NCBI GenBank assembly: GCA_963699705.1
Contig: CAVOUW010000003.1
Location: 2,161,776 to 2,225,775 of the forward strand
DNA length: 64,000 nt
DNA from: an uncultured delta proteobacterium
GTDB taxonomy: Bacteria > Desulfobacterota > Binatia > Binatales > Binataceae
Direction: 5' to 3'
Part shown: positions 23,097-60,361 of the stretch, in pieces
Numbering within the stretch: position 1 is the first letter of the stretch
How the letters are laid out: each line of letters opens with the position of its first letter
Program-made: the position numbers and the translations under genes
The notes under the pieces: model-generated
What the model was told of the DNA's origin: nothing
What the model saw: only the letters and a program-made list of their open reading frames with translations
Databases searched by the model: none

Positions 23097-23519
<423 letters not shown>

Positions 23520-23524
23520 CGCCC

Positions 23525-25525
23525 TTACGTCTCTTCGGATTCCTGCAGCGTTGCGGTTTGCAGCAACTCTGCCGGGACGTCTTCGAGGAAGCGCGACACG
23601 CGGCCCATCACGAAGCCGAAGTTGCGGTCGAACATGTGTATCGGATACGACAGGTACAGCTCGTCGCGCGCCCGCGTGCTCGCGACGTACATCAGCCGCC
23701 GCTCCTCTTCGATCTCATCGTCGCCGACACTTTGCGGTCCCGGGAACCGTCCATCCGCGGCCCAGATCAGGAACACCACTTTCCACTCGAGTCCCTTGGC
23801 CGAATGAATCGTCGTCAGCGTCATGTGCTCATCTTCCGAATCGGTCGCGAGCACCCCGTCGAGCGAATCATTCGGCGGCTCGAGCGCCATATCCGCCAGC
23901 ATCTGCTCGAGGCTCTTGTAGCGCTCCGTGAGATTCTGAAAATGTTCGAGGTCGCGTTCGCGCTTGGGATAATCGTCGGCGTACGCCTCGCGCATCACGG
24001 GCAGATAGTATTCGAGCGTCATCGCGATCTGCTCGGGCGGCCGCTTTTCGCCCGCGCGCAATTCCGCCAGCAGCGTGCCCAGTCGCTTGAGGCCGCTCTC
24101 AGAGCCACCGCGAGCCTTTTCAGCGAATTTCGCTACCGCTGCCGCTGGATCGTCGGATGCAACCAGCATGTCGATCGTCCTCTCCGCCGTGCGATGGCCG
24201 ATACCCTTCACCAGCGTCAGCACGCGCAGCCATGACACCGCGTCCGCAGGATTCGCGATCACTCGCAGATGCGCCAGCACATCCTTGATATGCGCGGTTT
24301 CTATAAATTTGAATCCGCCACGCTTGATGAACGGGATGTCGCGCCGCTGCAGCTCGAGTTCCAGGTCGAAAGAATGAAAGCTCGATCGAAACAGCACCGC
24401 GATTTCGTTGAGCTCGACGCCTTCTTCGCGCAACTCGAGAATCCGTTGCGCGACGAATCGCGATTGCATGTGCTCGTCCTGCGCGCGCACCAGGAACGGC
24501 CGAAAGCCGCCCTCGCGCTGCGTGAACAGCGCCTTGGTGTATTTTTCACCGGCGCGCGAGATCACGTCATTTGCGACGTCGAGGATCCCCTGGATCGAGC
24601 GGTAGTTCTCTTCGAGCTTCACGATCTTCGCGCCCGGAAAAATCGTGGGGAAGTCCATGATGTTGCGGAAGTTGGCGCCGCGAAACGAGTAGATCGACTG
24701 CGCATCGTCGCCGACCGCCATCACGTTGCGATGATTCATCGCGAGCAGCCGCACCAGGTCGGCCTGTATCAGGTTGGTGTCCTGGTACTCATCGATCATG
24801 ATGTAGCGATAGCTGTCCGACAGCCGGCGGCGCACGTTCTCGTATTGCTCGAGCAACTCCGCCAGCCGATACAGCAGGTCGTCATAGTCGAGCAGCGCGC
24901 GCTCGCGTTTGTAGCTCTCGTAATTTTTCGCGAGCTCGAGAATTTCCGTCTCATGCTCACCGAGATGCGGAAAATCGATCTCGATCTCCTCTTCGAGCGC
25001 GCGCCGTTTGTTGCGCGCCATGCTGATCGTCTCGGCAATCGTGCTCTTCTTCGGAAACCGGCGCTCGCGCGACCCGAGTCCCATCCGCGTCCGGATCAGG
25101 TTGATCACGTCTTCCATGTCCGATCGATCAAGGATGGTGAAGTTGGGCTTGAGGCCCATCGGCGCGCCATGCCGCCGCAGCACGTTGTTCGCGAATGAAT
25201 GAAACGTCCCGCCCGCGACCGCGCCCGCACGATCTCCAACCAGTTGTTCTGCGCGACGCAACATCTCTTGCGCCGCACGCCGCGTGAACGTCAGCAGCAG
25301 AATCGCGCCCGGCGGCACGCCGCTCTCGATCAAGCGTGCGACCCGATAGATCAGCGTGCGAGTCTTGCCCGATCCCGCCCCCGCAACCACCAGTAGCGGC
25401 CCGTCGCGATGCGTCACGGCCGCAAGCTGCGCGGGATTCAGCAGCTCGGCGTACTTGATTTTGAAGTTGCGCTCGTCGGCCGGCAGCGCCGGCTTTTCGC
25501 GCAGGTAAATTACCTTGTCGGCCAC
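23525..25525 (-). CDS. UvrD/PcrA/Rep-family ATP-dependent DNA helicase
   Basis: ELLNPAQLAAVTHRDGPLLVVAGAGSGKTRTLIYRVARLI...helicase motifs through to the C-terminus. The in-frame GTG at 25523..25525 is preferred. The ORF's first ATG (25639) would overlap the upstream BON gene by 75 nt. Confidence 0.75.
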   Translation of the reverse strand: MADKVIYLREKPALPADERNFKIKYAELLNPAQLAAVTHRDGPLLVVAGAGSGKTRTLIYRVARLIESGVPPGAILLLTFTRRAAQEMLRRAEQLVGDRAGAVAGGTFHSFANNVLRRHGAPMGLKPNFTILDRSDMEDVINLIRTRMGLGSRERRFPKKSTIAETISMARNKRRALEEEIEIDFPHLGEHETEILELAKNYESYKRERALLDYDDLLYRLAELLEQYENVRRRLSDSYRYIMIDEYQDTNLIQADLVRLLAMNHRNVMAVGDDAQSIYSFRGANFRNIMDFPTIFPGAKIVKLEENYRSIQGILDVANDVISRAGEKYTKALFTQREGGFRPFLVRAQDEHMQSRFVAQRILELREEGVELNEIAVLFRSSFHSFDLELELQRRDIPFIKRGGFKFIETAHIKDVLAHLRVIANPADAVSWLRVLTLVKGIGHRTAERTIDMLVASDDPAAAVAKFAEKARGGSESGLKRLGTLLAELRAGEKRPPEQIAMTLEYYLPVMREAYADDYPKRERDLEHFQNLTERYKSLEQMLADMALEPPNDSLDGVLATDSEDEHMTLTTIHSAKGLEWKVVFLIWAADGRFPGPQSVGDDEIEEERRLMYVASTRARDELYLSYPIHMFDRNFGFVMGRVSRFLEDVPAELLQTATLQESEET

Positions 25526-25563: not shown

Positions 25564-26016
25564 CTATGGCAGCATCGGCCCGCTGCCCGACGGCAGTTGC
25601 CCGCCGTTTTTGTAGATGCCTTGCATCGTCTTGTTCCACAGTTGGTCGGGACTGTTGGGCGATTGCGCACTCGATGCGGCCGCTGCCGATCCCTGAGGCG
25701 CGCGCAAATCCTCGACGTGCGGATCGAGCAGAATCTGGTCAACCAAATTGACGCTCGGATCGTTCAAGTACGCATTCGCGATTCGTTCCGCATCGTTGCG
25801 TCCAAACTGCGTCGCCACAAAGCCGGTGAGTATCAATTGTTTACTGCCACCCGGCGACGTCGAGAACTGCGCGGTGACCATCGGCAGCTCGTTCATGTGA
25901 AGATACTTCGTGAGCGCATCGCTGGTCCCCTGATCGATCACGTAATCCTGCCCCCGCGCGACACCGCACAGACTCATAACGATGATCACCGACATGAATG
26001 CTTTCACTCGTCGCAT
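25564..26016 (-). CDS. secreted BON-domain protein
   Basis: A signal peptide (MRRVKAFMSVIIVMSLCGVARG), then ELPMVTAQFSTSPGGSKQLILTGFVATQFGRNDAERIANAYL (BON-like), then a Ser/Ala/Pro-rich tail. The start is chosen at ATG 26014..26016. Confidence 0.5.
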   Translation of the reverse strand: MRRVKAFMSVIIVMSLCGVARGQDYVIDQGTSDALTKYLHMNELPMVTAQFSTSPGGSKQLILTGFVATQFGRNDAERIANAYLNDPSVNLVDQILLDPHVEDLRAPQGSAAAASSAQSPNSPDQLWNKTMQGIYKNGGQLPSGSGPMLP

Positions 26017-26109
26017 CACCATCCTCGACGATACCTGACGCGCTCGAAGAAAAGAAAACGCGGGCGTCATCTTCAACGCCCGCGCCTCTTTGTGTTTGCG
26101 ATTATCGGT

Positions 26110-27145
26110 TTACGGAACCTGGATCTGCTGAATCTGCGCAGTCTCTTTCTGCACTACCGCGGGAGGAAGCGGCGCGTACTTCAGGTCCGGCGCGTAGGTC
26201 TGTCCCTCGGTCAGCGCCCAGCCCAGGAACTTCTTGATCTGCTCGCCGACTTCCTTGTTGGTCTGCTTCTGATAAACCAGCAGCCACGTGAACGACGAGA
26301 TCGGGTACGCATCGGGGCCCGGCGCGTCCGTGATCGACACGCGGAAGTCCGCCGGCATGTTGCCCGCCGTTGACGCCGCCGCGGCCGTCACGCCCGCCAG
26401 GCTCGCGTCGACCCAGTTGCCCGCTTTGTTCTGGATCTGCGCGAATGGAATTTTGTTGTTGAGCGCGTAGATCAGCTCGACGTATCCGATCGAGCCGGGC
26501 GTCTGCTGCACCAGCGCCGTCACGCCCTCATTGCCCTTGCCGCCGAGTCCGGTCGGCCACTTGACCGCGGTGCCCTTGCCCGGATCCGACGCCCAGCTCG
26601 AGCTCACCTTCGAAAGGTAGTCGGTGAAAATATACGACGTGCCGCTGCCGTCCGACCGGTGGCATACGACGATGTCCTGCCCCGCCGGGATCTGCGCGCT
26701 CGGATTCAGCGCCCTGATCTTGTCGTCATCCCATTTCGTTATCTTGGCCGAGAAAATGTCCGCGATAACCGGACCCGTCAGCCGCAGCGTGCCGGTGAAG
26801 CCAGGCAGATTGTATGCGACCACGACCGCGCCCATCACGCTCGGGAAGTGCAGAATTTTTCCCGGCGCATCGGAAAGCTGTTGATCGGTCATCGGCGCGT
26901 CGCTCGCACCTAGATCAACCGTGCGATTCGACAGCATTCTGATTCCGCCGCCCGAACCAATCGATTGGTAGTTGAATTTGACCCCTGGATTTTCCTTCGC
27001 GTAAACGTCGAACCACTTGGAATAGATCGGATATGGGAACGTCGCGCCGGCGCCGTTGATTAATATGGTCGGCGAATCCGGATCGGCCGATTCCCGCAAT
27101 CGCAAGGAGTATGAAAAGGGCCAGAATGAGTCGTCGTTTGATCAT
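26110..27145 (-). pseudogene. pstS: phosphate ABC transporter substrate-binding protein PstS, apparently frameshifted within the signal-peptide region
   Basis: The mature PstS (ADPDSPTILINGAGATFPYPIYSKW...NYQSIGSGGG) is in the frame of ORF 26110..27105. The only signal peptide (MIKRRLILALFILLAIAGIG) is in the +1 frame of ORF 26915..27145. A TGA closes the PstS frame immediately upstream. Confidence 0.7.
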
Positions 27146-27383
27146 CTTTTGAACTTGCCTCGGTTAGTCGTGTCCGCTCCGCGAGTGGGGGTGCGGCGCG
27201 CAGAAGCTATGCACTGAACATTAACAGGGGATGAACCCGGCGTGTCGGCGAGTTGAAATCGTCCGCGTGGACCGCGATTCCCGTGGATAACCGCGCTTTG
27301 GCTGTAACCGTTTGCTTTTCTCGGCGTCGCTCGACGACAATTCAGATCGCCGTAACAATTCCGGTTCCTAAGCGTATTTTCCA

Positions 27384-28536
27384 ATGAGTAAATCACTCGA
27401 CGGAATCAACCTCGTCGAATTCGACTCCAACCTCGGCGCAGCTTACGCCGCGATGCTGCTCGCTGAAAACGGCGCGCACGCCATCAAAGTCGAGCCAATC
27501 GGCGGCTCGCGCCATCGCGTCACCCCGCACTTCCACGTCCTCAACCGCAGCAAGCGCGCGCTCGAGCTTGACCTCGACGATCCCGCATCACAGCCGCGCA
27601 TCGCCGATCTGATTCGATGGGCCGACATCGTCGTCACCGGCTTCACCCCGGCCCGCCTCAAACAACGGAATCTCGATCCAGAATCGATTCGCCGGATAAA
27701 TCCGCGCGCGATCGCGCTTGGCGTCCCTCCATTAGGCAGCCGCGGCCCCGACGCCGACTTCGACGCGAACGACGACCTTGTCGCGGCGCGCGGCGGAATC
27801 ACCGGCAGCCAATGGGCGCGCAGCGGCAATCCCGTCGCGCTGGTCTTTCCAGCGGCCAGTTATTCGGCCGGCGTGATGGCGGCGACCGCAGCGGTCGCAG
27901 CCCTCCTCGCGCGCGGTCGCGACGGAGGAGCAGGGCAGGCGGTCGAAGTGTCGCTTCTCGCCGGCGCCTTCTCGCTCCACACCGGCGGAATCCTGCGTCA
28001 CGAAAAAATGACGACGCTCTATCACGGGCCGCAGGATCCGCTCGGTCCGATTCCGGTTTATCGTCTGTTCGAAGCCGCCGACGGCAAATATCTGTTCGCC
28101 GCATGCGGCAACGCGACCTTCTGGGGCAAGTTTGCAATCGCAATCGATCGCCCCGATCTCGTCGGCGACCCGCGTTTCGAAAATGCGCCGTGGGGAATCG
28201 CGCAGGAACACTGGCAGCCGCTCAAGGACATCGTCGAGCCGATCATTCGCACCAAGTCGCGCGACCAATGGCTGAGCATCCTGCGCGAGGCCGACGTTCC
28301 ATGCGCTCCCGTGATGTCGCGTCACGAGTTTATCGATCACCCGCAGACGCGCTGCGCTCGGGATGCGCCATGAAATCGACGACCCCACTCTCGGCCGCAT
28401 GATTCAGATGGGCCTGCCGGTCTTTCTCAACGATACGCCCGGCGAAATCACCGGCGCGGCTCCGAAAAAGGGCGACGATCGCGCGGCCTTGCAATGGCTT
28501 CGAGAGCCAACCCGCGCCATCTCGCTAGAAATGTAA
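27384..28536 (+). pseudogene. CaiB/BaiF-family (class III) CoA-transferase, apparent 1-nt frameshift near the C-terminus
   Basis: The ORF stops at 28373 (…DHPQTRCARDAP*). The conserved C-terminal block continues in frame +1 (MRHEIDDPTLGRMIQMGLPVFLNDTPGEITGAAPKKGDDRAALQWL…EM*) to 28536. Removing one t at about 28351 restores …PQTRALGMRHEIDDPTLG. Confidence 0.7.
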
Positions 28537-28579
28537 GCCGCGTGTCGCTGAAAAAGGGCCTCCGCTCGATGGGGTCACG

Positions 28580-29710
28580 GTGCTCGACTTCGCCAGCTAC
28601 ATCGCCGGTTCGTACGGGCCAATGATCCTCGCGCAACTCGGCGCCAAAGTTATCAAGATCGAAAGCCTCGAGGGCGATTCGTTCCGCCATTTCGGCTTCG
28701 GCTTCCTCGGATGGAACCAGGGCAAGCGCGGCCTCGCACTGAATCTTACGACTGACCAGGGCCGCGAAATCATTCACGGACTCGCAGACAAAGCGGACAT
28801 CGTGGTCGAGAACCTGCGCCCGGGCCGGATGCGCAAGTTCGGCTTCGATTACGAAAGCCTCGCCGCGCGCAACCCGCGCATCATCTATATGTCGGTCAAC
28901 GCGTTCGGAAATCGCGGCCCCGAACACAATCAGCCCGGCTTCGATCCGCTGCTGCAGGCGCGCTCGGGCGTAATGGCGGCGCAGGGCGGCCATCACGGGC
29001 ATCCGGTGTACTTGACCTGCGCGATTTGCGATTACGGCGCCGCAATGCTCTCCGCGTTCGGATGCGTCCTCGCACTGCGTGCGCGCGAAATCACGGGACG
29101 CGGGCAATTCTGCGAGACCTCGCTCTTGCAATCCGCGATGGCGTTTCAGGCCGGCGAGTTCGCCTTCTATTCCGGCCGCCCCGACATGGAAAACGGCAGC
29201 TCTGAGAATCGCGGACGCTCCGCCGTTTCGCGCGCCTATCAATCGCGCGATGGCGAATGGCTATTCATCTCACTATCAAATGAAACTCAGTGGCTCGCGC
29301 TACTGACTATTCTGCCCGAACTGCGGAATACTAACTGGGATACGGCGCTAGCGGCTCCGAACGAAGGATCCCTCGCGACCGCACTGGCAGAGCAATTCGC
29401 CAGGCTCAATCGCGACGACGCACTCGCAGCGCTAAAGAAATCCGCAATCCCGGCGACACCGGTAAATCACACGCGCGAACTGTTCGATGATCCCCAGGTC
29501 GCCGCCAACGACCTGATCGCCGAGCTGTCCCATTCGGAATGGGGCCGCGTGAAGCAAACCGGGATGCTGACGAAGTTCTCCGCGACCCCCGGCAAGGTCG
29601 ATCGCGCCGCCCCGATGCTCGGCGAGCACACCGACGAGATCCTCCGCGAGTACCTCGGCTACTCGCCCGACCGAATCGCGAAGCTGCGCGCCGCCCACAT
29701 CATCAAGTGA
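28580..29710 (+). CDS. CaiB/BaiF-family (class III) CoA-transferase, second copy
   Basis: VLDFASYIAGSYGPMILAQLGAKVIKIES...GWNQGKRGLALNL. The listed GTG start truncates the conserved N-terminal GPLDGVTVLD motif (see findings). Confidence 0.8.
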   Translation: MLDFASYIAGSYGPMILAQLGAKVIKIESLEGDSFRHFGFGFLGWNQGKRGLALNLTTDQGREIIHGLADKADIVVENLRPGRMRKFGFDYESLAARNPRIIYMSVNAFGNRGPEHNQPGFDPLLQARSGVMAAQGGHHGHPVYLTCAICDYGAAMLSAFGCVLALRAREITGRGQFCETSLLQSAMAFQAGEFAFYSGRPDMENGSSENRGRSAVSRAYQSRDGEWLFISLSNETQWLALLTILPELRNTNWDTALAAPNEGSLATALAEQFARLNRDDALAALKKSAIPATPVNHTRELFDDPQVAANDLIAELSHSEWGRVKQTGMLTKFSATPGKVDRAAPMLGEHTDEILREYLGYSPDRIAKLRAAHIIK

Positions 29711-29721
29711 AAAAGTGATCG

Positions 29722-30264
29722 ATGGATCCTGAGGCGTCCGCCATCATCACGCCGCACCTGCTGGCCCGCGAAACCCTCCTCTGGTGCGGCCGCCCGCACG
29801 ACACGACCGCTCTTCGCTGGCGCGCCGGCATCGTCATCCTGGTAGGAATCGCGGCGCTCGCATTGCGATCGTTACCGCTCGACTCCGACCTCGCCGAGCG
29901 CGCCAACATCAATTCAATCCTCCTCGCAATCCTGGTGGTGGTCCTGATCGCAGAAGCGATGGTGTTCCATCGCTACCTGTCGAACACGTTCTACGGTGTA
30001 ACCAACCAACGCGTGATCATTGTCTCAGGGCTGCGCGAGCCAGAAATGATTGCGGTGTTTCTCGATCTGCTGAACACTCCGCAACTGCGCGTGCGTCGTA
30101 TCCGCGGCAATCTGGAATTGAGCCCGATGATTAGTCAGTCACCATTTCTGCCATTCGCCAACCCTAGTGTCGGACACGAATGCTATCGCCTGCTAGCCCT
30201 CGAGGACCCGCGACGAGTGTACGACCTCATCGTCGAATCCGCACACGCACTGAATAGTCAGTAG
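29722..30264 (+). CDS. bacterial PH-domain (bPH_2/YdbT-like) membrane protein
   Basis: Two TM helices, then YGVTNQRVIIVSGL (the YxxTNxRvi motif of bPH_2). Confidence 0.55.
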   Translation: MDPEASAIITPHLLARETLLWCGRPHDTTALRWRAGIVILVGIAALALRSLPLDSDLAERANINSILLAILVVVLIAEAMVFHRYLSNTFYGVTNQRVIIVSGLREPEMIAVFLDLLNTPQLRVRRIRGNLELSPMISQSPFLPFANPSVGHECYRLLALEDPRRVYDLIVESAHALNSQ

Positions 30265-30275
30265 CGACGTACTTA

Positions 30276-31373
30276 CTACACGATTCGCAAATAGTCAGGT
30301 GACGGCAGCGGCGGGAATTTTGCCGACGGCAGCGTCTGGTACCAATATGCTACCGACGCGATGTCGTCCTGGAGCGGCAGGAACTCGGCGCCCTTGCGCG
30401 GATCGCCCAGCCATCCGAGCGCCTGGATTGTCACCCGCAAATCCCGCGTGAACCTGATCGGGTCCGCGATATGCCATCGGTACATGCCGAATCTCTGCTG
30501 CGACGCGTACAGCCCGTCCGGCCGAATCACTTGCGCCAATCCTGCGTAGGGCGTGGTGAATTCGCGATAACCGCCGTTTTCCTTGCCGACGTCGAAATTG
30601 TACGAGCCGCAAAAATAATCCTCGGTGCCGGTGCCGCAGATCGTCGGAAACTCGGTATCGCCGTCGATGAAAAACTTGATCTCGCCTTCACCCCACCATC
30701 CGTTGTTGTTAACTCCCCACGCCATGTACGTGCCGACGTATTGCCCCCGCCCGGTTATCCCATCGACAATTGTGTAAACGGTTTTGTATGGCAGCGGATT
30801 GACGCGTCGGAACTGTGCATGGAAGTAGGCAGCGTCAGTAGCTACTTCAGTGAGTACATAGTTGATTTGATAAAATAGTATCATTGCCGTCTCGGCAGTA
30901 TTGGACATAGTAATCAGGCATCGCTTGCGAAATGGCATTTCCCAATAGCAATTGAACGCGCTGCCGGGATTTACGCACACCGCCAGCGACGAAACCTGCG
31001 CGTATTTGTTCCATCCACACGCGAAAAAATCTCCGACCGGACATTCCACCGACGGCTCCGGCGATCCGTCCCAGTAAATTCTGAGGATGCTCGAGCGCCA
31101 CTGTCCGGTCGGCGTCATCCAGATCTGCGCGATCGCGCCCGCGCCCGAAATATCGGCGAGTACTTTGACCTCGCCCGGCTCGATCACGACGTACGGCGCG
31201 ACCTTCCATCCGCGGCCGAGCTTTCGCGCCGGACTCTTGGCCAGGTCCGGCATTGCCATCGCACCTTTGCCCTTTTCGCCGGTCGGATTTTCGGGACTGA
31301 TCGATCGGCTCTCGGCATTTGAAAGTAGCGCGAGATTACCCAGGTGCATGCCGAGTCCGTTGAACGATGCCAT
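30276..31373 (-). CDS. DUF2961 (glycoside hydrolase family 172-like) protein
   Basis: MASFNGLGMHLGNLALLSNAESRSISPENPTGEKGKG...WGEGEIKFFIDGDTEFPTICGTGTEDYFCGSYNF is the DUF2961 signature. Confidence 0.75.
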   Translation of the reverse strand: MASFNGLGMHLGNLALLSNAESRSISPENPTGEKGKGAMAMPDLAKSPARKLGRGWKVAPYVVIEPGEVKVLADISGAGAIAQIWMTPTGQWRSSILRIYWDGSPEPSVECPVGDFFACGWNKYAQVSSLAVCVNPGSAFNCYWEMPFRKRCLITMSNTAETAMILFYQINYVLTEVATDAAYFHAQFRRVNPLPYKTVYTIVDGITGRGQYVGTYMAWGVNNNGWWGEGEIKFFIDGDTEFPTICGTGTEDYFCGSYNFDVGKENGGYREFTTPYAGLAQVIRPDGLYASQQRFGMYRWHIADPIRFTRDLRVTIQALGWLGDPRKGAEFLPLQDDIASVAYWYQTLPSAKFPPLPSPDYLRIV

Positions 31374-32418: not shown

Positions 32419-34457
<2,039 letters not shown>

Positions 34458-34539
34458 CCGGTTCGGGCTTGCGCCCGGAATGACTGTCGGCGATTTTTTT
34501 CCTGGCTCATGAATCTCACATAATCCTATCTGCGTCCCG

Positions 34540-36365
34540 ATGCTCTGTCATACCGATCGAAACGACACCGTCGGATGGCAGAGGATGGAGCGCGCCAGTT
34601 ACAATTCGCTGCTATGGTCTCCGCATCCGCACCGCGCGACTCGATCGCATCGCAGCACGAATCGCACCGACGATTCGCGATTCCGCTTCTATGCCGGCGC
34701 CGTCCTCGTTCTCACTGCGATTCTTTTCTTCACGCGCCTCGGTGCGCGAGCGCTGTGGTCCTCGGAATTCCGATGGGCCGAAATCGCGCGCGAGATGCTC
34801 GTGACGCACAACTATTTCTGGCCGACGATCAACGGCCACGTCTATTACGACAAGCCGCTGGGCTCGTACTGGCTGGTAATTTTCTCGACACCGTTCACAG
34901 GAGGCCTCAACGAAGCGGCCACGCGTCTGCCCAGCGCGATCGCCGGACTGCTGGCGGTCGGCAATACTCATGCTGCTCGACGCGACGGCTCTACGACGCT
35001 CGCACCGCGATACTTTCCGGCGTCATCCTCGCGACCAGCTTCAGCTTCGTATTCTTTTCGCGCGACGCCAGCGCCGACGTCGAGACGATCGCCGGCGAAC
35101 TCGCGGCGCTGCTGCTCTTCAACTACAACGAGGAGCGCGGCACTGGAATCTGGATCGTCGGCCTGTGGCTTATCATGGCCGCGACGTCGCTCACCAAAGG
35201 CTTGCTCGGATTCGCGCTGCCGCTGCTGATGATTGGCGCATACTCATGCCTGCGCGACGGATGGGCACAATTGTTTCAGGAAGTTTCCCGAGGCTCACTC
35301 GCTGATCGAATACGGCGGCTCATCGATCGCAACCGATGGTTCTTCAACTGGTACACGATCGTTGGCATCGCGATCGGCGGCTTCGTTTACTACCTGCCGT
35401 TCGAAATCTCGGCGCGCATGATGGGCACGCAAAAGGGCCTCGCGATGGTTTATCGCGAGAACGTCGTGCGTTTTTTCCATCCTTTCGACCATCGCGGCCC
35501 TATCTACTTATACATCTACGTGATCTTCGGCCTGATGGCGCCATGGTCGGCGCTGTTGCCAGCCGCCCTGGTCGAAACGCACAGCTTGCGACGTGCCAAT
35601 GCCGAGCCGGCGCGCAGCGATCGATTCGCGCTGGTATATTTCTGGGCGACGTTCATATTTTTCACGCTGTCCGGATCGCGCCGCAGCTACTACATCCTGC
35701 CGATTCTGCCTGCCGCGGCGATGCTGGTCGCACGAACGCTCGCGTATCCCGGCGAACTACGCTCGACGTTCGCCCGCCGCTTGATGATTATCGGCTACGC
35801 GATCGTAGCGATCGCCGCTGTCGGAGGCATTATCCTGCTGATTCCGGCCTGGGCGGTTTTGCCGAGCCCTTATGACGCTCTGCCTGACCTGCCCGCGAAA
35901 TCCGCCTTCATAGTATTCTGGATTGTCTCAGTCGGCGCGGTCGTCTACGCGATTCGCAAATTCAGCCCATATCAAGTCGCAATTTCGATGGCGGCAATTT
36001 CCTACCTTGTGATGGCCTACATATATATCTTCGCGATGCCCGCTGCGGAGGCCTATCGGGGCGAAAAACCGTTCGGTTATGCGGTGCTGAACAAGATTGG
36101 CGGTTCCACGGATCACCTGGTCCTGTTCAAGACCGAGGGGCCGCTGTTCTATCTCAATCCGCCCAAGCCCCTGCCTGAGTTTGAAGACAAGCAGGACTTG
36201 CAGGATGCGATTGCGAATGGGGGCGCCAAATGGATGATTGTCCGCCGCCGCGACATGCCGAAGCTCGACACTGCGACGACGATTGAGCTTAGTGAGGCGT
36301 CATATCCGTGGGAGACCGATTACAATTTCCGGAATAAGGTGGTGCTGGTGAAGATCGGCAACTGA
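34540..36365 (+). pseudogene. GT39-family (ArnT/PMT-like) membrane glycosyltransferase, apparent frameshift(s) near codon 140
   Basis: N-terminus in frame 1 (RLGARALWSSEFRWAEIAREMLVTHNYFWPTINGHVYYDKPLGSYWLVIFSTPFTGGLNEAATRLPSAIAGLLAVG). The remainder is in frame 0 (…RRLYDARTAILSGVILATSFSFVFFSRDASADV… to 36365). A short ILMLL segment is readable only in frame 2 around 34960..34990. Confidence 0.65.
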
Positions 36366-36450: not shown

Positions 36451-37593
36451 CTAGAGTCGCATCGGCATGACGACGTAGGTGTACTGCTGATCCGTCTCGG
36501 TTCTGATGACGCCGGGGCTGACGTCGTCGCTTAGTCCGAGTTCTACTGTCGAATCCGCTTCCTGCGAAATTACGCCGAGGGCTTGCTGTACGTATGACGC
36601 GTTGAATCCGATCGCGAATTCTTCGCTCTTGAAATCGACGTCGAGCGATTCGCTGGCTTCCCCGGTTTCGGGACTCGTCGATGAGACCGTCAGCGTCCCG
36701 GCCGATAGCGCGAATTTGACGCCGTGATATCGCTCGCTGGAGAAGATTGCCGCGCGTTTGATTGCCGCAAACAGCAGATCACGCTTTACCGTGATTTTGT
36801 ATTTCGACTGCTTGGGGATTACACCGCGATAGTCAGGAAATTCGCCTTCGACCAGCCGCATCGAGACTTCAGTCGCGCCGCGCTTCAAATACGCGAGCTG
36901 ACCTTCGAGGCTCAGGCGCACTTCCGGTTCGGTGCCGACATCCAGAATCTTGCGCAGTTCCGCGAGACCCTTTCGCGGAATGATCGCGCCGCTTGGCATC
37001 GCGAATCCCGGCACCTCGCGCTCGATCATCGCGAGGCGATGCCCATCGGTCGCGACCATCCGAACCGCTCCGGGAGCGTTGGACTCGACAAACACGCCGC
37101 TCAAGTTGTAGCGCGCTTCATCGGGACTGACCGCGAAGATCGTTTTGTCGATCATCTGGGCCAGCACTGTCGCTGGGATCGCCAGTTCGGCCTTGAGCTG
37201 TTTCTTCGCTGCGCCAGAATCCTTGCCGGTGCTCTGACTTGGCATCGCGGGGAAGCTGCGCGGATCGAGGCCCATCATTTTGAACTTCGCGCGCCCGCAT
37301 TTCAGCTCGACCCAATCGCCATCAAGCGTCGTCAGCGCGACTTCCTCGCCTTCGGTCTCGCGCACGATTTCAAAAAGTTTGCGCGCGTTGAGGGTCAGAC
37401 TTTTTTCCTTGCCGCTACACGCGACCTGGGTGCGAATTCCGACTTCGAGGTCGGTGGCGCTGAGCGTCAGCGCGTTTCCGTTTGGCTCGAGCAGGACGTG
37501 ACCGAGGATCGGAACCGTCGTGCGCCGTTCCACGATGCCCTGGACGAGTCCCAAACCGCTAAGCAGCGAAGCGCGCTCGATTGCGAGTCCCAT
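36451..37593 (-). CDS. dnaN: DNA polymerase III subunit beta (sliding clamp)
   Basis: MGLAIERASLLSGLGLVQGIVERRTTVPILGHVLLEPNGNALTLSATDLEVGI…three-domain clamp. About 380 aa. Confidence 0.9.
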   Translation of the reverse strand: MGLAIERASLLSGLGLVQGIVERRTTVPILGHVLLEPNGNALTLSATDLEVGIRTQVACSGKEKSLTLNARKLFEIVRETEGEEVALTTLDGDWVELKCGRAKFKMMGLDPRSFPAMPSQSTGKDSGAAKKQLKAELAIPATVLAQMIDKTIFAVSPDEARYNLSGVFVESNAPGAVRMVATDGHRLAMIEREVPGFAMPSGAIIPRKGLAELRKILDVGTEPEVRLSLEGQLAYLKRGATEVSMRLVEGEFPDYRGVIPKQSKYKITVKRDLLFAAIKRAAIFSSERYHGVKFALSAGTLTVSSTSPETGEASESLDVDFKSEEFAIGFNASYVQQALGVISQEADSTVELGLSDDVSPGVIRTETDQQYTYVVMPMRL

Positions 37594-37833
37594 GAATTGT
37601 TAGCCCGTCTTCCTATTCCGGATCTTTAGATCTCTAAAAAAGAATAGCAGTAATAGTAGGAGTTGTGGATTTGTTGATGGAGCCCGCAAGCGACCGAAAT
37701 TGAACGCCGATCGATCGCTGAAAAGCTGTCGGCGAAAAAACGGCTACTCGACAGGGCCGGCCGTCCGCGCACCGACCCTGTCGATAGCTCCAGGTTTATG
37801 CTCCCCTCGTCCACAGCCTCCCCCACAATCGAT

Positions 37834-39258
37834 TCACGCCGCATTCGCGCGGATCGATTTAAGCTCGCGCTCGATTTTCTCGATCGAGAGCCGAAAAGCC
37901 GAATCACTGGTCACGCGCCGCATGATCAGGTTGTACGCGTGAATCACCGTCGAATGGTCGCGCCCGAAATGTTCGCCGATGGTCGGAAACGAGCTGTCGG
38001 TCAGCTTGCGGCAGAGATACATCGCGACCTGGCGGCAGAATGCGATGTGCTGCGTGCGCTTCTTCGACTTCAAATCCGTCAGCCGGATATGGAAAAAATC
38101 CGCGACGGTTTTCTGGATCGATTCGACGTCGGGCTTCGCGTCGTGATTGCGAATCAAATCCTGTAGCGCCTGCCGCGCGAAGTCCACGGTGATTGCCGAT
38201 TGGTTGAGCGACGCGAGCGCCGCCAGCCGCGTCAGGCATCCCTCGAGCTCGCGAACATTCGACGAAACGCTCTGCGCGATATACATCGCGACTTCGGGCG
38301 CCAGTCGCAGGTTTTCGAGCACCGCCTTCTTCTGCACGATCGCGACGCGGGTCTCGAGGTCGGGCGGTGCGATGTCCGCGATCAAGCCCATCTCGAAGCG
38401 ATTGCGCAGCCGCTCCTCGAGCCCCGGAATTTCGCGCGGCACTTTGTCCGAGGTCAGGATGATCTGATGCCGTTCGGCATGGAGCGCGTTGAACGTGTGG
38501 AAGAATTCTTCCTGCGTGCGCTCGCGACCGGCCAGGAATTGCACGTCGTCGAGGATCAAAGTATCAACGCGTCGAAACTTTTCGCGAAACTCGTTCATTT
38601 TGTCGCGCCGCAGCGAGCCGATCAGCTCGTTCATGAAAATCTCGGCCGGCATGAACAGCACTTTCCGCGGCCGCTCGCCGACGGCGTAGATATGGTGCCC
38701 GATCGCGGTCACCAGGTGCGTCTTGCCCAGGCCGACCCCGCCGTAGATGAAAAGCGGGTTGTATTTTTCGCCCGGCTGATTGGCGACCGCCTGGGCCGCG
38801 GCATGCGCGAACTGATTGGCCGATCCCACCACGAACTCCGCAAAACTGTAGCGGGCGTTCAGGGTCGGATGACGATCTCCACGCGGCGCAGCCGCCGTGG
38901 TCGCGCGATTGGTCGCATACGCCTTGCCGTTACCGTTCCCGTTAGCATGGCCGTTGCCATTTGAATGGCCGTTGGCATGACCATTGGCCGGACGTTGTGG
39001 CGGCGTCACGGCCGCAGCATTCTCGCCCAGCGTCAGCCGCACCTCGATTTCGCCGCCGGCCTCGGCCGACAGCGCGGAGCGCATCATGCTCATGTAGCGA
39101 TCGTTGATCCAATCGCGAAAAAATCGGTTGGGCGCTTCGACCGTGACCGTCGAACCTTGATGAGCGACAAAATTAAGCGGCCCAATCCACGTCTCGTACC
39201 CGACCTGACCGAGCTCATCGCGCATACGGTCCGCAGCCCGCTGCCATAGTCCATTCAT
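37834..39258 (-). CDS. dnaA: chromosomal replication initiator protein DnaA
   Basis: [28 protein letters not shown]…[10 protein letters not shown] (Walker A)…DDVQFL…a C-terminal DNA-binding domain (HSTVIHA). ATG at 39256..39258 is preceded by GGGGGAA. The ORF opens at GTG 39276. Confidence 0.9.
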
Positions 39259-39345
39259 ATCGTTCCCCCTGACCACCCCGGAAGCCCAAGCCCGCTCCGG
39301 AAATTAGCGCGCCGGCATCGATCCGGCGCGAATTACGCACAGTCT

Positions 39346-39365
39346 TATCCACACCTGTGGATAAG
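39346..39365. promoter_or_regulatory. inverted pair of perfect DnaA boxes (TTATCCACA cc TGTGGATAA)
   Basis: Exact matches to the DnaA-box consensus at 39346..39354 and its reverse complement at 39357..39365, 88 nt upstream of dnaA. Confidence 0.75.
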
Positions 39366-39604
39366 CGGTTATTCCTTCGTTACAACCAACAATTTGACGG
39401 CACGACACGCCGGACTATCAACTCATCCGGGTTACGATCGGTTCTGTTAGGGTGAAAATTTTGTTCGACGATAGGGGCGATATACACGCGCTTCGGAGCC
39501 ATAGATCACGCGCCGCGAAATGAACCTGTCAGTGAAGATTGGTTCTTGTAAGTACGAAGTGTGCGGCCAAGTGAACGTGATAAACTTATTTCGTGGCGAG
39601 GACA

Positions 39605-39850
39605 AGTGCGCAAAAAAATTCGTCGCTATACGCGCGGAACGTAAAGGAAATTTCCCTGATCAGTGATCGCGCGCAGTGCGCACAAAATTTTGCATCGATC
39701 ATGCGATCGCGCATATCTGCTCTGGGAGCCATCATGCGCGATCGCAAATTTTCGCGTCTCGACGCAAATTTGTCACGCGATCGACGCGCGCGATCAAATT
39801 TTTCTTCGCGATCGAAAAAAAAATTTCGATCCCACGAGATCTTCGAGCAT
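39605..39850. repeat. AT-rich array of GATC-containing 13-mer-like repeats (candidate DNA-unwinding element of oriC)
   Basis: At least 6 copies of (C)GCGATCG(C/A)AAATTTT-like units (GTGCGCAAAAAAATTCG, GTGCGCACAAAATTTTGCATCGATC, GCGCGATCGCAAATTTTCG, GACGCAAATTTGTCACGCGATCG, GCGCGATCAAATTTTTC, GCGATCGAAAAAAAAATTTCGATCC). There are 8 GATC sites within about 150 bp. Confidence 0.55.
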
Positions 39851-51845: not shown

Positions 51846-52907
51846 TCAGCCCAGGAAATGCATTGCGATGATTGCGTTGGTCACTACGAATGACGCGGGG
51901 ATCAGCCAGCGCGAGTATTTGCGGATCTCGAGGCCCAGGTCGCGGCGGCGTTCCGAGCGATGGGTTACGTGGACTGTCATCAGTTCCACCACTGCGAGGA
52001 AAACGTAGATGTAGCACTCGAGGAAGAACGCATCGATGTAGGTCAGGTACGGTAGCCGCGGCATCGTCGCGGAAATCGCAAACGCGAACGCGATCACAGT
52101 CAGAATCGTCGTGACTGCGACTTGCACCTGGTTCGACAAGTCGGTGACCTCGATCCAGAACACCGCCCACGACAGGAACACCATCAGCAAGAGCGGCAGA
52201 AATACCTTCCATAAATAAAAGCTCGAGCGCCGCTGAACAGAAATCGCGAACCTGGCCTCCGGCACCGTCCGGCCGCCGTAGGTCGGAGCCACTCCTATTC
52301 GCGGCTCAACCGCTGCGACCCTCCACTGCGCCAGCGACGAGTAGCTCTCGAACTCGCTCGCCGTCCAGGTCGAGTGATCGCCCAGCCTGAACCTGATGTG
52401 AGGTCCATCGACCAGGAACGGGTGAATTATGATAACCAGCGACTGCCGGTCGAACGGGAATCGCCGGAGCGCGAACTTCGATGACAGCCCGACCTTGCAT
52501 CGCTCTGCATAGCGCACGGTGCCGTCGGGCGCGACGCGGATCGAAGTGTCGTAGCGCTCGCGCGGCGTGGCGGCGTTGATCATTTCGAGCTGCGGAATCC
52601 AGATTTGCCCGAATGAGTAGTTGCGCTCCTGATCGTCGGAACCGCTCGGCGTGAAGGCGAGCCGCGGATCGATCCATTTTGCGAACAGGTACGCGTCCAT
52701 CTGGAACTGCTCGTTCACTTCGTCGATCGACGAGATGTTCACGATGTGCAGTCCGATGTCGATGTCGAGCGGCTGTCCGTTGTAGGGCGGAGGTTGCAGG
52801 ATGGGATCGGTAGCGATGCCGGTCGGAGTTTGCGCCGCGCGCGACTCTACCGGCCACAACATTGCCGCGACAATCGCAAAAGCAAGCGCAACGATCCCCT
52901 GACACAT
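51846..52907 (-). CDS. prokaryotic pentameric ligand-gated ion channel (Cys-loop receptor superfamily, GLIC/ELIC-like)
   Basis: A signal peptide, a ~200-aa beta-rich extracellular domain, then the pLGIC M1 signature RRSSFYLWKVFLPLLLMVFLSWAVFWI, M2 QVQVAVTTILTVIAFAFAIS, M3 and a C-terminal M4. Confidence 0.75.
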   Translation of the reverse strand: MCQGIVALAFAIVAAMLWPVESRAAQTPTGIATDPILQPPPYNGQPLDIDIGLHIVNISSIDEVNEQFQMDAYLFAKWIDPRLAFTPSGSDDQERNYSFGQIWIPQLEMINAATPRERYDTSIRVAPDGTVRYAERCKVGLSSKFALRRFPFDRQSLVIIIHPFLVDGPHIRFRLGDHSTWTASEFESYSSLAQWRVAAVEPRIGVAPTYGGRTVPEARFAISVQRRSSFYLWKVFLPLLLMVFLSWAVFWIEVTDLSNQVQVAVTTILTVIAFAFAISATMPRLPYLTYIDAFFLECYIYVFLAVVELMTVHVTHRSERRRDLGLEIRKYSRWLIPASFVVTNAIIAMHFLG

Positions 52908-56595: not shown

Positions 56596-57360
56596 GTGAC
56601 TGCTGGAGCGATGCATGAATCCCGCTCCACGCCATCGCCGATCGATCGTTACAGCCTCGCGAGCCTGCTGATCTATTTCGCGCTGTCGCTATTTTTTTTC
56701 GGCCGCTCGCTCGCAGGTCATCTTTCGAACGCGCATCTGGGTACCGGTCCCGACCCATCCGTCATGATCTGGATGCTGGTGTGGTGGTCGCATGCTATCG
56801 AGCACCGCTTGAACGTATTTATGACGCACGCGATCTGGGCGCCGTCCGGTTTCAACCTGGCCTGGGCAACCTGTATCCCGCTGGCTGCGTGGATCGCGCT
56901 GCCACTCACTCGCATCTTCGGGCCCGTCGTAAGTTACAATCTGCTGTGCCTGCTCGCCCCGGCACTGGCGAGTTGGACGGCGTTTATCCTCTGCCGCTAC
57001 CTGACCAACAGCTATTGGCCCGCGCTCCTTGGCGGCTACATATTCGGCTTCTCCTCATACATGCTCGGCCAGATGTACGGGAATTTGCCCCATCTCCTGG
57101 TATTCCCGGTTCCTCTGGCCGTATATTTAGTCGCGCGCAAACTTGCCGCAGACATAAAGACCGCGACCTTCGTAATGCTGCTGGCAATGGTTCTGGCGAT
57201 GCAGTTCCTGCTCACGATCGAAATCGTCGCGACCATGACGATGTTCGGCGCGATGGCGCTAGCGCTCGCAATATCATTTACCTCAGGCGATCTGAGAAGC
57301 CGTGTCTTGCGACTGATCGGTCCGATCCTCGCAAGTTATGCGATCGCAATCGCATGGTGA
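56596..57360 (+). CDS. polytopic membrane protein (N-terminal module of a two-part envelope protein)
   Basis: 254 aa, ~7 TM. GTG start. It ends in the GTGA/ATGGTGA overlap with the next ORF. Confidence 0.45.
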   Translation: MTAGAMHESRSTPSPIDRYSLASLLIYFALSLFFFGRSLAGHLSNAHLGTGPDPSVMIWMLVWWSHAIEHRLNVFMTHAIWAPSGFNLAWATCIPLAAWIALPLTRIFGPVVSYNLLCLLAPALASWTAFILCRYLTNSYWPALLGGYIFGFSSYMLGQMYGNLPHLLVFPVPLAVYLVARKLAADIKTATFVMLLAMVLAMQFLLTIEIVATMTMFGAMALALAISFTSGDLRSRVLRLIGPILASYAIAIAW

Positions 57361-58772
57361 GTCCCTATCTCTATTACCTCTTCGCCTTCGGATTTCCCCA
57401 CGGCCCGATGTGGTCGCTCGCGACGTTCTCCGGCGATCTGCTCAACTTCGTAGTGCCGACTAATTTGAACGTCCTCGGCCATATCGGCGCCTTCGAATCG
57501 ATCTCCAACAATTTCGCCGGCAACATCTACGAGGCCGCGGGATATCTAGGACTTCCACTCATACTGATCGCGATCATTTTCGCGCGCTATCACTGGCGCG
57601 AGCCGCTGGGCAAGTTGCTGATCGATTCGCTGGTGATCATTTGCGTCCTGTCACTGGGTCCTCTGCTTCACCTGGCAGGGAAGCCTTCAATCGGCCTGCC
57701 AGGAAAGTTGCTCGCGCGGTTGCCGATCCTTGAAAATGCGTTACCCGCGCGGTTCATGCTCTATGCTTTTCTGGATCTATCGATCTTAACTTCAATCTGG
57801 CTGGCCACCAGCTCCGCAAAAACAGTTTCGAAGTACGCAATTGCAGTTCTCGCGGCCTTGTTTCTGATGCCGAATCTCTCCGCGACCTCCTGGAGTGCGC
57901 CGATCGATACGCCGCCCTTCTTTTTGAACGGGCTCTACCGGAACTACCTGGCTCCCGACGAGACTGTGGTCATCCTGCCCTACGGGCTCAGAGGCAACAG
58001 CCTGCTCTGGCAGGCCCAGACCGACATTTATTTTCGCATGGCGGGCGGCTATACGGGCGTCATGCCTCCCGATTTCGAAAGTTGGCCGATTGTCGATGCG
58101 ATGTACGCTGGAGCTTACCTTCCCGACCCAGAAAATCAGTTGAAGGCGTTCCTCGCCAATCATGACGTAAGCGCGGTCATCGTCAGCGACAATGAAAAGG
58201 ACGCATGGCGGCCTCTGCTCGCCACCTTGGAAGTTACACCAATCGATGTCGGCGGCGTGGCACTCTACAAAATTCCACCTCTCAACCTTGCCGCTTATAA
58301 AGGTCAGACTCCGCTTAATTTGGAGCGCCAGGCCGATTCGACTCGCTTCGACGCTCTTATCGTCGCCGCCAACAAGTATCTCCAACGCACCGGCTCTCTC
58401 GACGGTCTCACTCCGCACGTGGCCGATAGCCTCGGCCTGATTCCCGCCGGTTGGCTCGTAGGTCCGCCGCTGCCGCCCTACTATTGGAGTCAGGGTTCGG
58501 AGCTTCGCCGCGACAAGGGTCTCTGGCTAGGTCCATGGCGCGACGGTCAAGCGAGCATCGGGTTGGAAGGTTCCTATGCCGCGATCAAACCGCTGATCGA
58601 CAAGTATCGCGCCTCGGCCAGCCAGATTTATTTTCCCTATCCAGATCAGTTCTCCGAGACTTCGCAGAAAGACGGCTCAGCGCTTCTGGTGATAGTCTTC
58701 GACCGCGAGCAATTGTCACGTGCAGCCGCTCAAATTGAAGCGTCCCCTTCAAGGCCGCGGGACGCCACGTGA
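57357..58772 (+). CDS. membrane protein with a large C-terminal periplasmic domain (C-terminal module, or a frameshifted continuation of the previous ORF)
   Basis: (M)VSPYLYYLFAFGFPHGPMWSLATFSGDLLNFVVPTNLN…4-5 TM, then about 300 aa soluble. Possible starts are GTG 57357 and ATG 57354. The ORF track extends it to 56781 in a non-coding frame. Confidence 0.45.
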   Translation: MSPYLYYLFAFGFPHGPMWSLATFSGDLLNFVVPTNLNVLGHIGAFESISNNFAGNIYEAAGYLGLPLILIAIIFARYHWREPLGKLLIDSLVIICVLSLGPLLHLAGKPSIGLPGKLLARLPILENALPARFMLYAFLDLSILTSIWLATSSAKTVSKYAIAVLAALFLMPNLSATSWSAPIDTPPFFLNGLYRNYLAPDETVVILPYGLRGNSLLWQAQTDIYFRMAGGYTGVMPPDFESWPIVDAMYAGAYLPDPENQLKAFLANHDVSAVIVSDNEKDAWRPLLATLEVTPIDVGGVALYKIPPLNLAAYKGQTPLNLERQADSTRFDALIVAANKYLQRTGSLDGLTPHVADSLGLIPAGWLVGPPLPPYYWSQGSELRRDKGLWLGPWRDGQASIGLEGSYAAIKPLIDKYRASASQIYFPYPDQFSETSQKDGSALLVIVFDREQLSRAAAQIEASPSRPRDAT

Positions 58773-59907: not shown

Positions 59908-59914
59908 GGGAGAG

Positions 59915-60361
59915 TTACTGCGTAATCACCATCGCGGCGGTGCGCGTGAGCGGGATTGTCACCGACGAAACCAGGTTCGTCAGCGGTGGAAAATTGTAGC
60001 TGACGCTTACGGTTACTTTGCTCCCGGGCTTGTTGTCCGGAGACCAGGTCGTGGTGACGGTCATCGAGCTCGTGGTCAGCACTCCGACGACGAGAGCCTT
60101 CACGTAATTCGTAACATCCGTCGAGGACACGACAGTTGTCGCGGTCGAGCCATGAACTGTCGCATAGCGAACTGCCTGCTGCGCGCTGTAACAGACGAAG
60201 TCGTAGCAATAGAGCGCCAGCGCGAAGTTGATGATCCCGAAAAACAGCGTCAGGCACGGCGTGATCACCAGCGCGAACTCCGCCATCGCCTGCGCCGGAT
60301 GCGATCGCCCCGCAGCGTCGCGTAATCGTCGCCACCCCTGCTTGAAGCCGCCGCGCTTCAT
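59915..60361 (-). CDS. TadE/TadF-like pilus assembly (minor pilin) protein
   Basis: MKRGGFKQGWRRLRDAAGRSHPAQAMAEFALVITPCLTLFFGIINFALALY is the TadE-like N-terminal motif. ATG at 60359..60361 overlaps the upstream stop (ATGA). Confidence 0.7.
   Translation of the reverse strand: MKRGGFKQGWRRLRDAAGRSHPAQAMAEFALVITPCLTLFFGIINFALALYCYDFVCYSAQQAVRYATVHGSTATTVVSSTDVTNYVKALVVGVLTTSSMTVTTTWSPDNKPGSKVTVSVSYNFPPLTNLVSSVTIPLTRTAAMVITQ

What the first reader, a model, noticed from the sequence alone, without database searches (positions are those of the whole stretch)
26110..27145. pstS: signal peptide and mature domain are in different frames
The only plausible secretion signal (MIKRRLILALFILLAIAGIG, ATG at 27143) is +1 relative to the mature PstS frame (…ADPDSPTILINGAGATFPYPIYSKWF…). 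A TGA closes the PstS frame right at the signal-peptide ATG. The alternative TTG start gives a signal-less periplasmic binding protein, which would be non-functional.
Basis: seen in the sequence. Interest (0 to 1): 0.5.

Follow-up and report, generated by a model that had tools for sequence, protein, structure and literature searches.

The report
pstS split by one extra base
The phosphate-binding protein gene pstS really is split between two reading frames here, but the cause is a single extra base that no related genome has, one of ten such extra bases in an 8-kb patch, so it is most likely a sequencing or assembly error.

Summary
ATG 27145 opens a conserved Sec signal peptide (MIKRRLILALFILLAIAGIGRSGFA|D). 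The mature PstS domain lies in the +1 frame, which is closed upstream by the TGA of ATGA. The first in-frame start is TTG 27105.

More than 120 close homologues (Candidatus Binatus/Binataceae, 341-344 aa, up to 96% identical) encode signal and mature domain in one frame. About 50 related genomic loci align with the window carrying exactly one extra base, in codon 27 (27065/27066). Deleting it gives GFADQLINGAGATF, as in the nearest relatives.

The gene is otherwise intact:
- it matches the TIGR00975 PstS equivalog;
- the ligand-binding motifs are present;
- dN/dS is 0.08, the same as between intact orthologues.

The lesion is not isolated. Nine more single-base insertions break three neighbouring conserved genes between 28.3 and 35.0 kb. 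Removing only those bases restores full-length proteins. No coding-region frameshift was found at 18-27 kb or 39-51 kb. Two public Nanopore-only MAGs carry similar insertions at other pstS positions.

Best reading: a local consensus error (about 0.85). A very recent real mutation (about 0.1) cannot be excluded without reads. Programmed frameshifting is rejected. Interest is low.

The parts
27067..27145 (-). pstS codons 1-26: Sec-type signal peptide MIKRRLILALFILLAIAGIGRSGFA|D, starting at ATG 27145-27143. The C at 27067 belongs to codon 27.
   Evidence: sequence and frames; 25/26 residues identical to P0001-P0005; aligns with the signal and cleavage region of the E. coli PstS precursor (SVFA|EAS... 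against SGFA|DQL...).
27065..27066 (-). The surplus base: one of T27065 or A27066 (minus-strand reading GAC-CATA-TTA), inside codon 27. It moves the mature domain into the +1 frame.
   Evidence: a gap at this column in all 12 relatives; private insertion against 14 loci; against L081; exactly one gap in 1036 nt against L086/L087; deleting T27065 gives GFADQLING (as in P0005/P0008/P0009) and deleting A27066 gives GFADLLING (as in L001 and others).
26110..27064 (-). pstS codons 28-344 plus stop: the mature phosphate-binding domain, intact.
   Evidence: PBP_like_2, 1.7e-41. TIGR00975 PstS equivalog, 392.6 bits (cut-off 205), profile 1-314/315. E. coli PstS structures, 1e-83 to 1e-85; dN/dS 0.07-0.08.
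27142..27144 (-). TGA that closes the PstS frame. It overlaps the signal-peptide ATG (ATGA) and is a chance consequence of the shifted frame.
27103..27105 (-). TTG, the first start codon in the shifted PstS frame, inside the signal-peptide coding segment. It has no Shine-Dalgarno-like sequence before it and is not used as a start in any homologue.
   Evidence: all homologues start at the upstream ATG.
27158..27161 (-). GAGG, a Shine-Dalgarno-like motif 12 nt upstream of ATG 27145, conserved in relatives (CGAGGCAAGxTCAAAAG-ATG).
   Evidence: upstream 30 nt of about 40 loci.
26055..26088 (-). Intrinsic-terminator-like hairpin (15 pairs, then a T-run) 22 nt after the pstS stop. pstS appears to be monocistronic.
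28353..28353 (+). Single-base insertion (GCGC[T]GCGC) in the fused double CoA-transferase III gene (27384-29707), first frame break.
28532..28532 (+). Single-base insertion in the same CoA-transferase gene, second frame break. Removing both restores 774 aa against 773 aa in L081.
32456..32456 (-). Single-base insertion near the 3' end of the DUF255/Thioredox_DsbH gene (32426-34510).
32633..32633 (-). Single-base insertion in the DUF255 gene.
34465..34491 (-). Two single-base insertions (34465 and 34491) within the first 20 codons of the DUF255 gene. Removing all four insertions restores 695 aa (695 in L081; 666 identical).
34664..34979 (+). Three single-base insertions (34664, 34960, 34979) in the PMT-family glycosyltransferase gene (34614-36365). 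As written, about 105 codons are read out of frame. Removing the three bases restores 582 aa (582 in L081) and raises N-terminal identity from 164 to 238 of 258.
   Evidence: (coding potential switches frame).

Best explanation
The locus is an ordinary, intact, monocistronic pstS gene for a periplasmic phosphate-binding protein with a Sec signal peptide, from a Candidatus Binatus-like bacterium. In the window it appears split because one surplus base (T27065 or A27066) sits in codon 27, just after the signal-peptidase site. That base most likely entered during sequencing or consensus building. It belongs to a local low-quality patch (about 27.0-35.0 kb) with at least ten single-base insertions inside four conserved genes, plus one at 27303 in the pstS/CoA-transferase intergenic spacer. 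In the organism, the protein is expected to be made as one 344-aa precursor, exported by Sec, cleaved after GFA, and to bind phosphate like E. coli PstS. Shown: the extra base, its absence from all relatives, the intactness of everything else, and the cluster of like lesions. Inferred: that the cluster is technical rather than mutational.
For: (1) All of the best 120 homologues (341-344 aa, up to 96% identity) cover 98-100% of the one-base-repaired protein, and the 16 sequences inspected carry MIKRRL...GFAD[Q/M/L]L[I/V]NGAGATF in one frame.
(2) DNA alignments with 12-14 syntenic Binatus loci and with closer metagenome contigs (92-94% nt identity) show exactly one extra base in the window. Deleting it reproduces the relatives' residues.
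(3) The repaired gene has no other lesion. It matches TIGR00975 at 392.6 bits and aligns with the E. coli PstS precursor across the cleavage site and the binding motifs. Its dN/dS is 0.08 against L087/L085, equal to intact-intact pairs at 0.085-0.089. The signal segment is still 25/26 identical to relatives.
(4) Nine more single-base insertions break the neighbouring CoA-transferase (2), DUF255 (4) and PMT (3) genes. Removing only those bases restores 774, 695 and 582 aa, against 773, 695 and 582 aa in L081.
(5) All ten coding lesions are insertions. One-base deletions of the window occur only in intergenic DNA, so the insertion class has not been filtered by selection.
(6) The lesions are confined to one patch. 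No frame breaks occur at 18-27 kb or 39-50.8 kb. Elsewhere Pfam matches are full length for most genes examined, though several ORFs had no Pfam match and three candidate frame switches were not resolved.
(7) The public Nanopore-only MAGs L049 and L051 carry private one-base insertions at other pstS positions, while the short-read-style contigs compared (JGI, k141/k127) have none. The MFD MAGs are Flye plus one round of Medaka (PMC12313526). Nanopore consensus indels are a known cause of frameshifted gene calls (PMC9262707).
Against: No reads, coverage or quality values are available, and the source assembly was not found on record, so its sequencing technology is unknown. Most of the ten insertions are not in homopolymers, which is not the classic Nanopore error context. 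A real, very recent frameshift would look identical in a single consensus sequence.
Confidence: 0.85

Rival explanations
1. Real, very recent pseudogenisation. A one-base insertion in this strain uncoupled the signal peptide from the mature domain, so at best a cytoplasmic, useless PstS is made from TTG 27105 and the orphan pstS is being lost.
For: The sequence as given says so. pstS here is an orphan copy without pstCAB in the window or in relatives' flanks, so it could be dispensable if another pst locus exists elsewhere.
Against: dN/dS is 0.08, the same as intact orthologues, and the now 'unused' signal segment is still conserved. There is no second lesion in pstS. Nine like insertions would also have to be real in three neighbouring genes, with no nonsense codon or deletion and a perfect restoration on removal. 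Every related genome with a clean assembly keeps the gene intact in the same position. An all-insertion spectrum runs against the deletion bias usual for bacterial mutation (own knowledge).
Confidence: 0.1
2. A locally hypermutated or decaying 8-kb segment. For example, a mutator episode or a non-functional duplicated/transferred segment accumulates real insertions, pstS being one casualty.
For: The ten insertions are tightly clustered at 27.0-35.0 kb, while the flanks are clean.
Against: The patch is fully syntenic with relatives and shows no excess amino-acid divergence after repair: 90-96% identity and normal dN/dS for pstS. No known mutational process gives only +1 insertions in mixed sequence contexts. 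Public long-read MAGs show the same syndrome.
Confidence: 0.04
3. Programmed +1 ribosomal frameshifting or transcriptional slippage joins the signal peptide to the mature domain during expression.
For: The geometry fits: the 0-frame ORF carries the start and signal, the +1 frame carries the rest, and the two frames overlap.
Against: The site (GCC GAC CAT ATT AAT) has no shift-prone motif, no 0-frame stop or hungry codon at the shift point, and no homopolymer run for slippage. The frameshift is absent from every orthologue, all of which are in one frame. Recoding sites are normally conserved (own knowledge; prfB is an example).
Confidence: 0.01

Closest known systems
PstS, the periplasmic phosphate-binding protein of the PstSCAB ABC importer (NCBIfam TIGR00975; E. 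coli PstS, PDB 1IXH/9K3S)
   Same: After removal of one base the product is a 344-aa precursor with a Sec signal and a cleavage site aligned to that of E. coli PstS. The match is full length (392.6 bits against a cut-off of 205). The GAGATF, SIGSGGG, GASDAP and RSDGSGTS motifs, which hold the phosphate ligands in E. coli PstS, are conserved.
   Different: As written, the signal and the mature domain are in different frames. The gene is an orphan: monocistronic with its own terminator and no pstC/pstA/pstB within the 64-kb window, in a conserved position between a UvrD-like helicase and a double CoA-transferase gene in Binatus genomes.
Consensus indel errors in long-read (Nanopore-only) metagenome-assembled genomes, which fragment gene calls
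   Same: Several single-base indels break otherwise conserved genes, are absent from relatives, cluster locally, and restore full-length proteins when removed. Public Nanopore-only Binatus MAGs (L049, L051) show the same in this very gene (PMC9262707; PMC12313526).
   Different: The classic description is of homopolymer-associated indels. Here at most 2 of 10 extend a run. The technology behind the window is unknown.
Programmed +1 frameshift genes such as prfB (release factor 2)
   Same: Only the layout: a short 0-frame ORF followed by a long +1 ORF.
   Different: There is no shift site, no regulatory logic and no conservation in orthologues.

Membership tests
PstS (TIGR00975 equivalog / PBP_like_2) | Full-length match to the family model above the curated cut-off | tested here: met
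   392.6 bits against a cut-off of 205, profile 1-314/315, residues 29-341 of the repaired protein. PF12849, 1.7e-41, on the ORF as written.
PstS (TIGR00975 equivalog / PBP_like_2) | N-terminal export signal in frame with the binding domain | tested here: not met
   as written the signal is in frame 0 and the domain in frame +1. The feature is met after deleting one base, as in all homologues.
PstS (TIGR00975 equivalog / PBP_like_2) | Phosphate-ligand residues of E. coli PstS (Thr10, Phe11, Ser38, Asp56, Arg135, Ser139, Gly140, Thr141; residue list from my own knowledge of the 1IXH literature) | tested here: met
   alignment: GAGATFP, IGSGGG, GASDAP and R-x-DGSGTS are conserved against the E. 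coli sequence.
PstS (TIGR00975 equivalog / PBP_like_2) | Genomic linkage to pstC, pstA and pstB | tested here: not met
   no permease or ATPase genes of a pst operon among the window ORFs examined; none in the 21-kb relative locus. The rest of the genome is not available.
Assembly/consensus indel artefact | The lesion is absent from all orthologues and its removal restores the consensus protein | tested here: met
Assembly/consensus indel artefact | Further lesions of the same kind in neighbouring conserved genes, with no other sign of decay | tested here: met
   nine further +1 insertions in three genes, all restored on removal; dN/dS unchanged.
Assembly/consensus indel artefact | Reads or quality values contradict the consensus at the site | not testable with these tools
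   No reads are available, and the source assembly is not on record.
True pseudogene | Relaxed selection or additional disabling mutations | tested here: not met
   dN/dS 0.08, equal to intact pairs; no internal stop after removal of one base.
Programmed ribosomal frameshift / transcriptional slippage | A shift-prone motif at the junction and conservation of the two-frame layout in orthologues | tested here: not met
   no slippery or homopolymer sequence; all orthologues are in a single frame.

The most novel reading that the evidence does not exclude
The extra base is real. A Binatus population has very recently disabled export of its conserved orphan PstS, together with nine other genuine +1 insertions in an 8-kb segment. 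That would point to a local, insertion-only mutational process or to ongoing loss of this segment.
Probability: 0.08. Interest if true: 0.3.

Novelty: not a real feature. Interest (0 to 1): 0.06.

Why it matters
The main value is as a quality flag. Window 27.0-35.0 kb carries at least ten single-base insertions that break four genes, so gene calls and any 'pseudogene' or 'truncated protein' finding in that stretch should not be taken as biology. If the frameshift were real, it would be an ordinary recent pseudogene of an accessory phosphate-binding protein, of limited interest. The check also shows that comparison with relatives can locate and repair such lesions to the base.

Tried and rejected
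- Looking up the source assembly by exact protein (the pstS ORF as written, and FabI) found nothing. The sequencing technology of the window therefore stays unknown.
- My intrinsic coding-potential scan flagged many same-strand frame switches. Pfam showed most to be ordinary adjacent genes: SnoaL/HAGH/FabI, Ham1/Ddl, DsbA/AhpC and luciferase/h212/h215. The scan over-calls, and only the sites confirmed against relatives are reported.
- Candidate switches at about 2040, about 57290 and 58.8-60.0 kb remain unverified because no close relative was fetched for those regions.
- The stop-to-stop ORF tblastn was noisy, because spurious antisense ORFs are common in 60% GC DNA. It was replaced by comparison with called genes of L081.
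- Programmed frameshifting and transcriptional slippage were considered and rejected (no motif, no conservation).
- No shared motif or homopolymer context was found for the inserted bases.

Full report
**1. Observation**

On the minus strand, ATG 27145-27143 opens MIKRRLILALFILLAIAGIGRSGFADHINQRRRRDV... (a 76-aa ORF). The PstS reading frame (...ADPDSPTILINGAGATFPYPIYSKWF...) is +1 relative to it. That frame is closed by TGA 27144-27142, which overlaps the ATG. Its first start codon is TTG 27105, giving the 331-aa ORF 26110-27105.

**2. What the gene is**

The long ORF matches PBP_like_2 and SBP_bac_1. After the repair described below, the product matches the NCBIfam PstS equivalog TIGR00975 at 392.6 bits (cut-off 205), over profile positions 1-314 of 315, beginning at residue 29.

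It also aligns with E. coli PstS structures at E = 1e-83 to 1e-85. That alignment includes the precursor's signal and cleavage region: SVFA|EASLTGAGATF in E. coli against SGFA|DQLINGAGATF here. The segments that hold the phosphate ligands in E. coli PstS are conserved (GAGATF, IGSGGG, GASDAP, R-x-DGSGTS). The residue list is from my own knowledge of that structure.

A terminator-like hairpin follows the stop codon. A conserved GAGG lies 12 nt before the ATG.

**3. Homologues**

A search with the one-base-repaired protein returned thousands of hits. The best 120 are 341-344 aa, cover 98-100% of the query and are up to 96% identical. Sources name them Candidatus Binatus, Binataceae or 'delta proteobacterium' MAGs. 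The 16 sequences I inspected carry signal and mature domain in one frame: MIKRRLILALFIILAIAGIGRSGFAD[Q/M/L]L[I/V]NGAGATF. None starts at a position equivalent to the TTG.

**4. Locating the lesion**

- Eighty genomic loci were fetched. The gene sits in conserved synteny: UvrD-like helicase, a 158-170-aa protein, pstS, then a divergent double CoA-transferase gene. Nucleotide identity across this region is 82-87%.
- Closer metagenome contigs were found through P0009, P0001 and P0002: L081-L087, 92-94% identical over pstS.
- In every alignment the window has exactly one extra base, in codon 27. The window reads GAC-CATA-TTA-ATC where relatives read, for example, GAC-ATG-TTA-ATC.
- Against L086/L087 the 1036-nt gene aligns with a single gap.
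- Deleting T27065 gives GFADQLINGAGATF, as in P0005/P0008/P0009. Deleting A27066 gives GFADLLING, as in L001 and others.
- The lesion lies at mature residue 2, directly after the predicted signal-peptidase site.

**5. Is the gene decaying?**

No sign of decay was found.
- The repaired gene has only its terminal stop.
- Nei-Gojobori dN/dS against L087 and L085 is 0.084 and 0.080. Intact-intact control pairs give 0.085 and 0.089.
- The signal-coding segment would be useless if translation started at the TTG, yet it is still 25/26 identical to the closest relatives.

Any real frameshift would therefore have to be very recent.

**6. The neighbourhood decides the question**

Proteins of the close relative L081 were compared with the window. 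Nearly all called genes between 18.1 and 35.4 kb align full length in one frame. Besides the window's gene-content gaps, there are four exceptions:
- pstS.
- The 773-aa double CoA_transf_3 gene, which falls into three frames.
- The 695-aa DUF255/Thioredox_DsbH gene, seen in two frames in this comparison; its first 20 codons hold two further breaks.
- The PMT-family glycosyltransferase, which aligned in a single frame but at only 59% identity despite about 91% nucleotide identity.

Base-level alignment shows single-base insertions in the window at these positions:

| Gene | Insertion positions |
|---|---|
| CoA-transferase | 28353, 28532 |
| DUF255 | 32456, 32633, 34465, 34491 |
| PMT | 34664, 34960, 34979 |
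| Intergenic | 27303, 20794 |

Removing only the coding insertions restores the following:

| Gene | Repaired length | L081 length | Identity |
|---|---|---|---|
| CoA-transferase | 774 aa | 773 aa | 697 identical |
| DUF255 | 695 aa | 695 aa | 666 identical |
| PMT | 582 aa | 582 aa | N-terminal 164/258 rises to 238/258 |

The same sites are private to the window against 14 GTDB species representatives. All ten coding lesions are insertions. The window's one-base deletions lie only in intergenic DNA. Natural indels filtered by selection would show the deletions' pattern; the insertion class ignores coding boundaries.

**7. Extent of the patch**

- Between 18 and 27 kb no gene is frameshifted.
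- A metagenome contig syntenic with 39.0-50.8 kb (L119) shows every gene in a single frame there.
- Pfam matches for most other large ORFs of the window are full length: IMPDH, Ddl, DnaA, DnaN, fumarase, carboxyltransferase and others.
- The insertions are thus concentrated in about 8 kb (27.0-35.0 kb), with pstS at the patch's edge.
- Three weaker candidate frame switches from my coding-potential scan (about 2040, about 57290 and 58.8-60.0 kb) could not be checked against relatives.

**8. Precedent in public data**

Among the fetched Binatus loci, two MAGs labelled MFD...bin carry private one-base insertions in this same gene, at other positions. L049 has them at gene nt 63, also inside the signal peptide, and at nt 748. 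L051 has one at nt 320. L049 has further ones in the helicase and CoA-transferase genes. None of the other loci compared carried such insertions, including the JGI and k141/k127 contigs.

The MFD MAGs are Nanopore-only assemblies (Flye plus one round of Medaka; PMC12313526). Residual consensus indels that frameshift gene calls are a documented property of such data, especially below about 40x coverage (PMC9262707).

I could not establish the window's own source. Most of its insertions are not homopolymer extensions. The attribution to a particular technology is therefore inference.

**9. Alternatives**

- A real recent frameshift cannot be excluded from a consensus sequence alone. It would, however, need nine companion insertions in neighbouring conserved genes to be real as well, with no other damage.
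- Programmed +1 frameshifting or transcriptional slippage is rejected. The junction (GCC GAC CAT ATT AAT) has no shift-prone or homopolymeric motif, and no orthologue shares the two-frame layout.

**10. Verdict**

The biological reading, a broken and signal-less PstS, is most likely wrong.

| Explanation | Estimated probability |
|---|---|
| One-base consensus error within a locally error-rich patch | about 0.85 |
| Real recent mutation | about 0.10 |
| Local real hypermutation or decay | about 0.04 |
| Programmed recoding | about 0.01 or less |

Interest is low. The useful output is the list of eleven suspect bases: ten inside genes, plus 27303 in the spacer upstream of pstS.

Noticed in passing
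window 27384-29707 (+): A fused gene with two CoA-transferase family III domains (773 aa in relatives) is conserved next to pstS in Binatus genomes. In the window it is cut into three frames by insertions at 28353 and 28532.
   Followed up: yes
window 32426-34510 (-) and 34614-36365 (+): The DUF255/Thioredox_DsbH gene has four single-base insertions and the PMT-family glycosyltransferase has three. The PMT ORF stays open (583 aa), so the damage is invisible to ORF finding, and about 105 codons are read out of frame.
   Followed up: yes
window 36451-39276 (-), spacer about 39277-39675: dnaN (36451-37593) and dnaA (37834-39276) lie here, so the window probably spans the chromosomal replication origin region. 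DnaA boxes and GC skew were not examined.
   Followed up: no
window 51846-52907 (-): A 353-aa protein with Neur_chan_LBD and Neur_chan_memb domains, i.e. a prokaryotic pentameric ligand-gated ion-channel homologue.
   Followed up: no
window about 22963, 23519-23531 and 30227-30276, against L081: The close relative L081 carries extra genes that the window lacks: a 1230-bp block (358-aa protein), about 736 bp (243-aa protein) and about 1.7 kb (amidase plus a 72-aa protein). This is gene-content variation at conserved junctions.
   Followed up: partly
L002 and L005 (both MAG MFD00731.bin.1.188): One public MAG holds two syntenic copies of the whole pstS neighbourhood on different contigs, both aligning to the window across the whole region, at about 82% (L002) and 85% (L005) nucleotide identity. 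This suggests a bin mixing two related populations, or a large duplication.
   Followed up: no
L049 (CAVUUH010000034.1, MFD00964.bin.2.3): This public MAG has at least six private one-base insertions in 13 kb: two in the UvrD-like helicase, two in pstS, one in the CoA-transferase gene and one at window-equivalent position 31066. It is the same syndrome as in the window.
   Followed up: partly
window 25564-26076 (-): A 158-170-aa predicted secreted protein with no Pfam or NCBIfam match is conserved directly downstream of pstS in all Binatus loci. It overlaps the start of the UvrD-like helicase gene by about 75 nt.
   Followed up: no
window about 2040, about 57290 and 58769-59999: The coding-potential scan shows same-strand frame switches that might be further frameshifts or simply adjacent genes. 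ORFs 56596-57360 and 56781-58772 have no Pfam match.
   Followed up: partly
window 60816-63394 (-): Two adjacent TadE/G-like (Tad, Tad_C) genes, part of a Flp/Tad pilus cluster.
   Followed up: no
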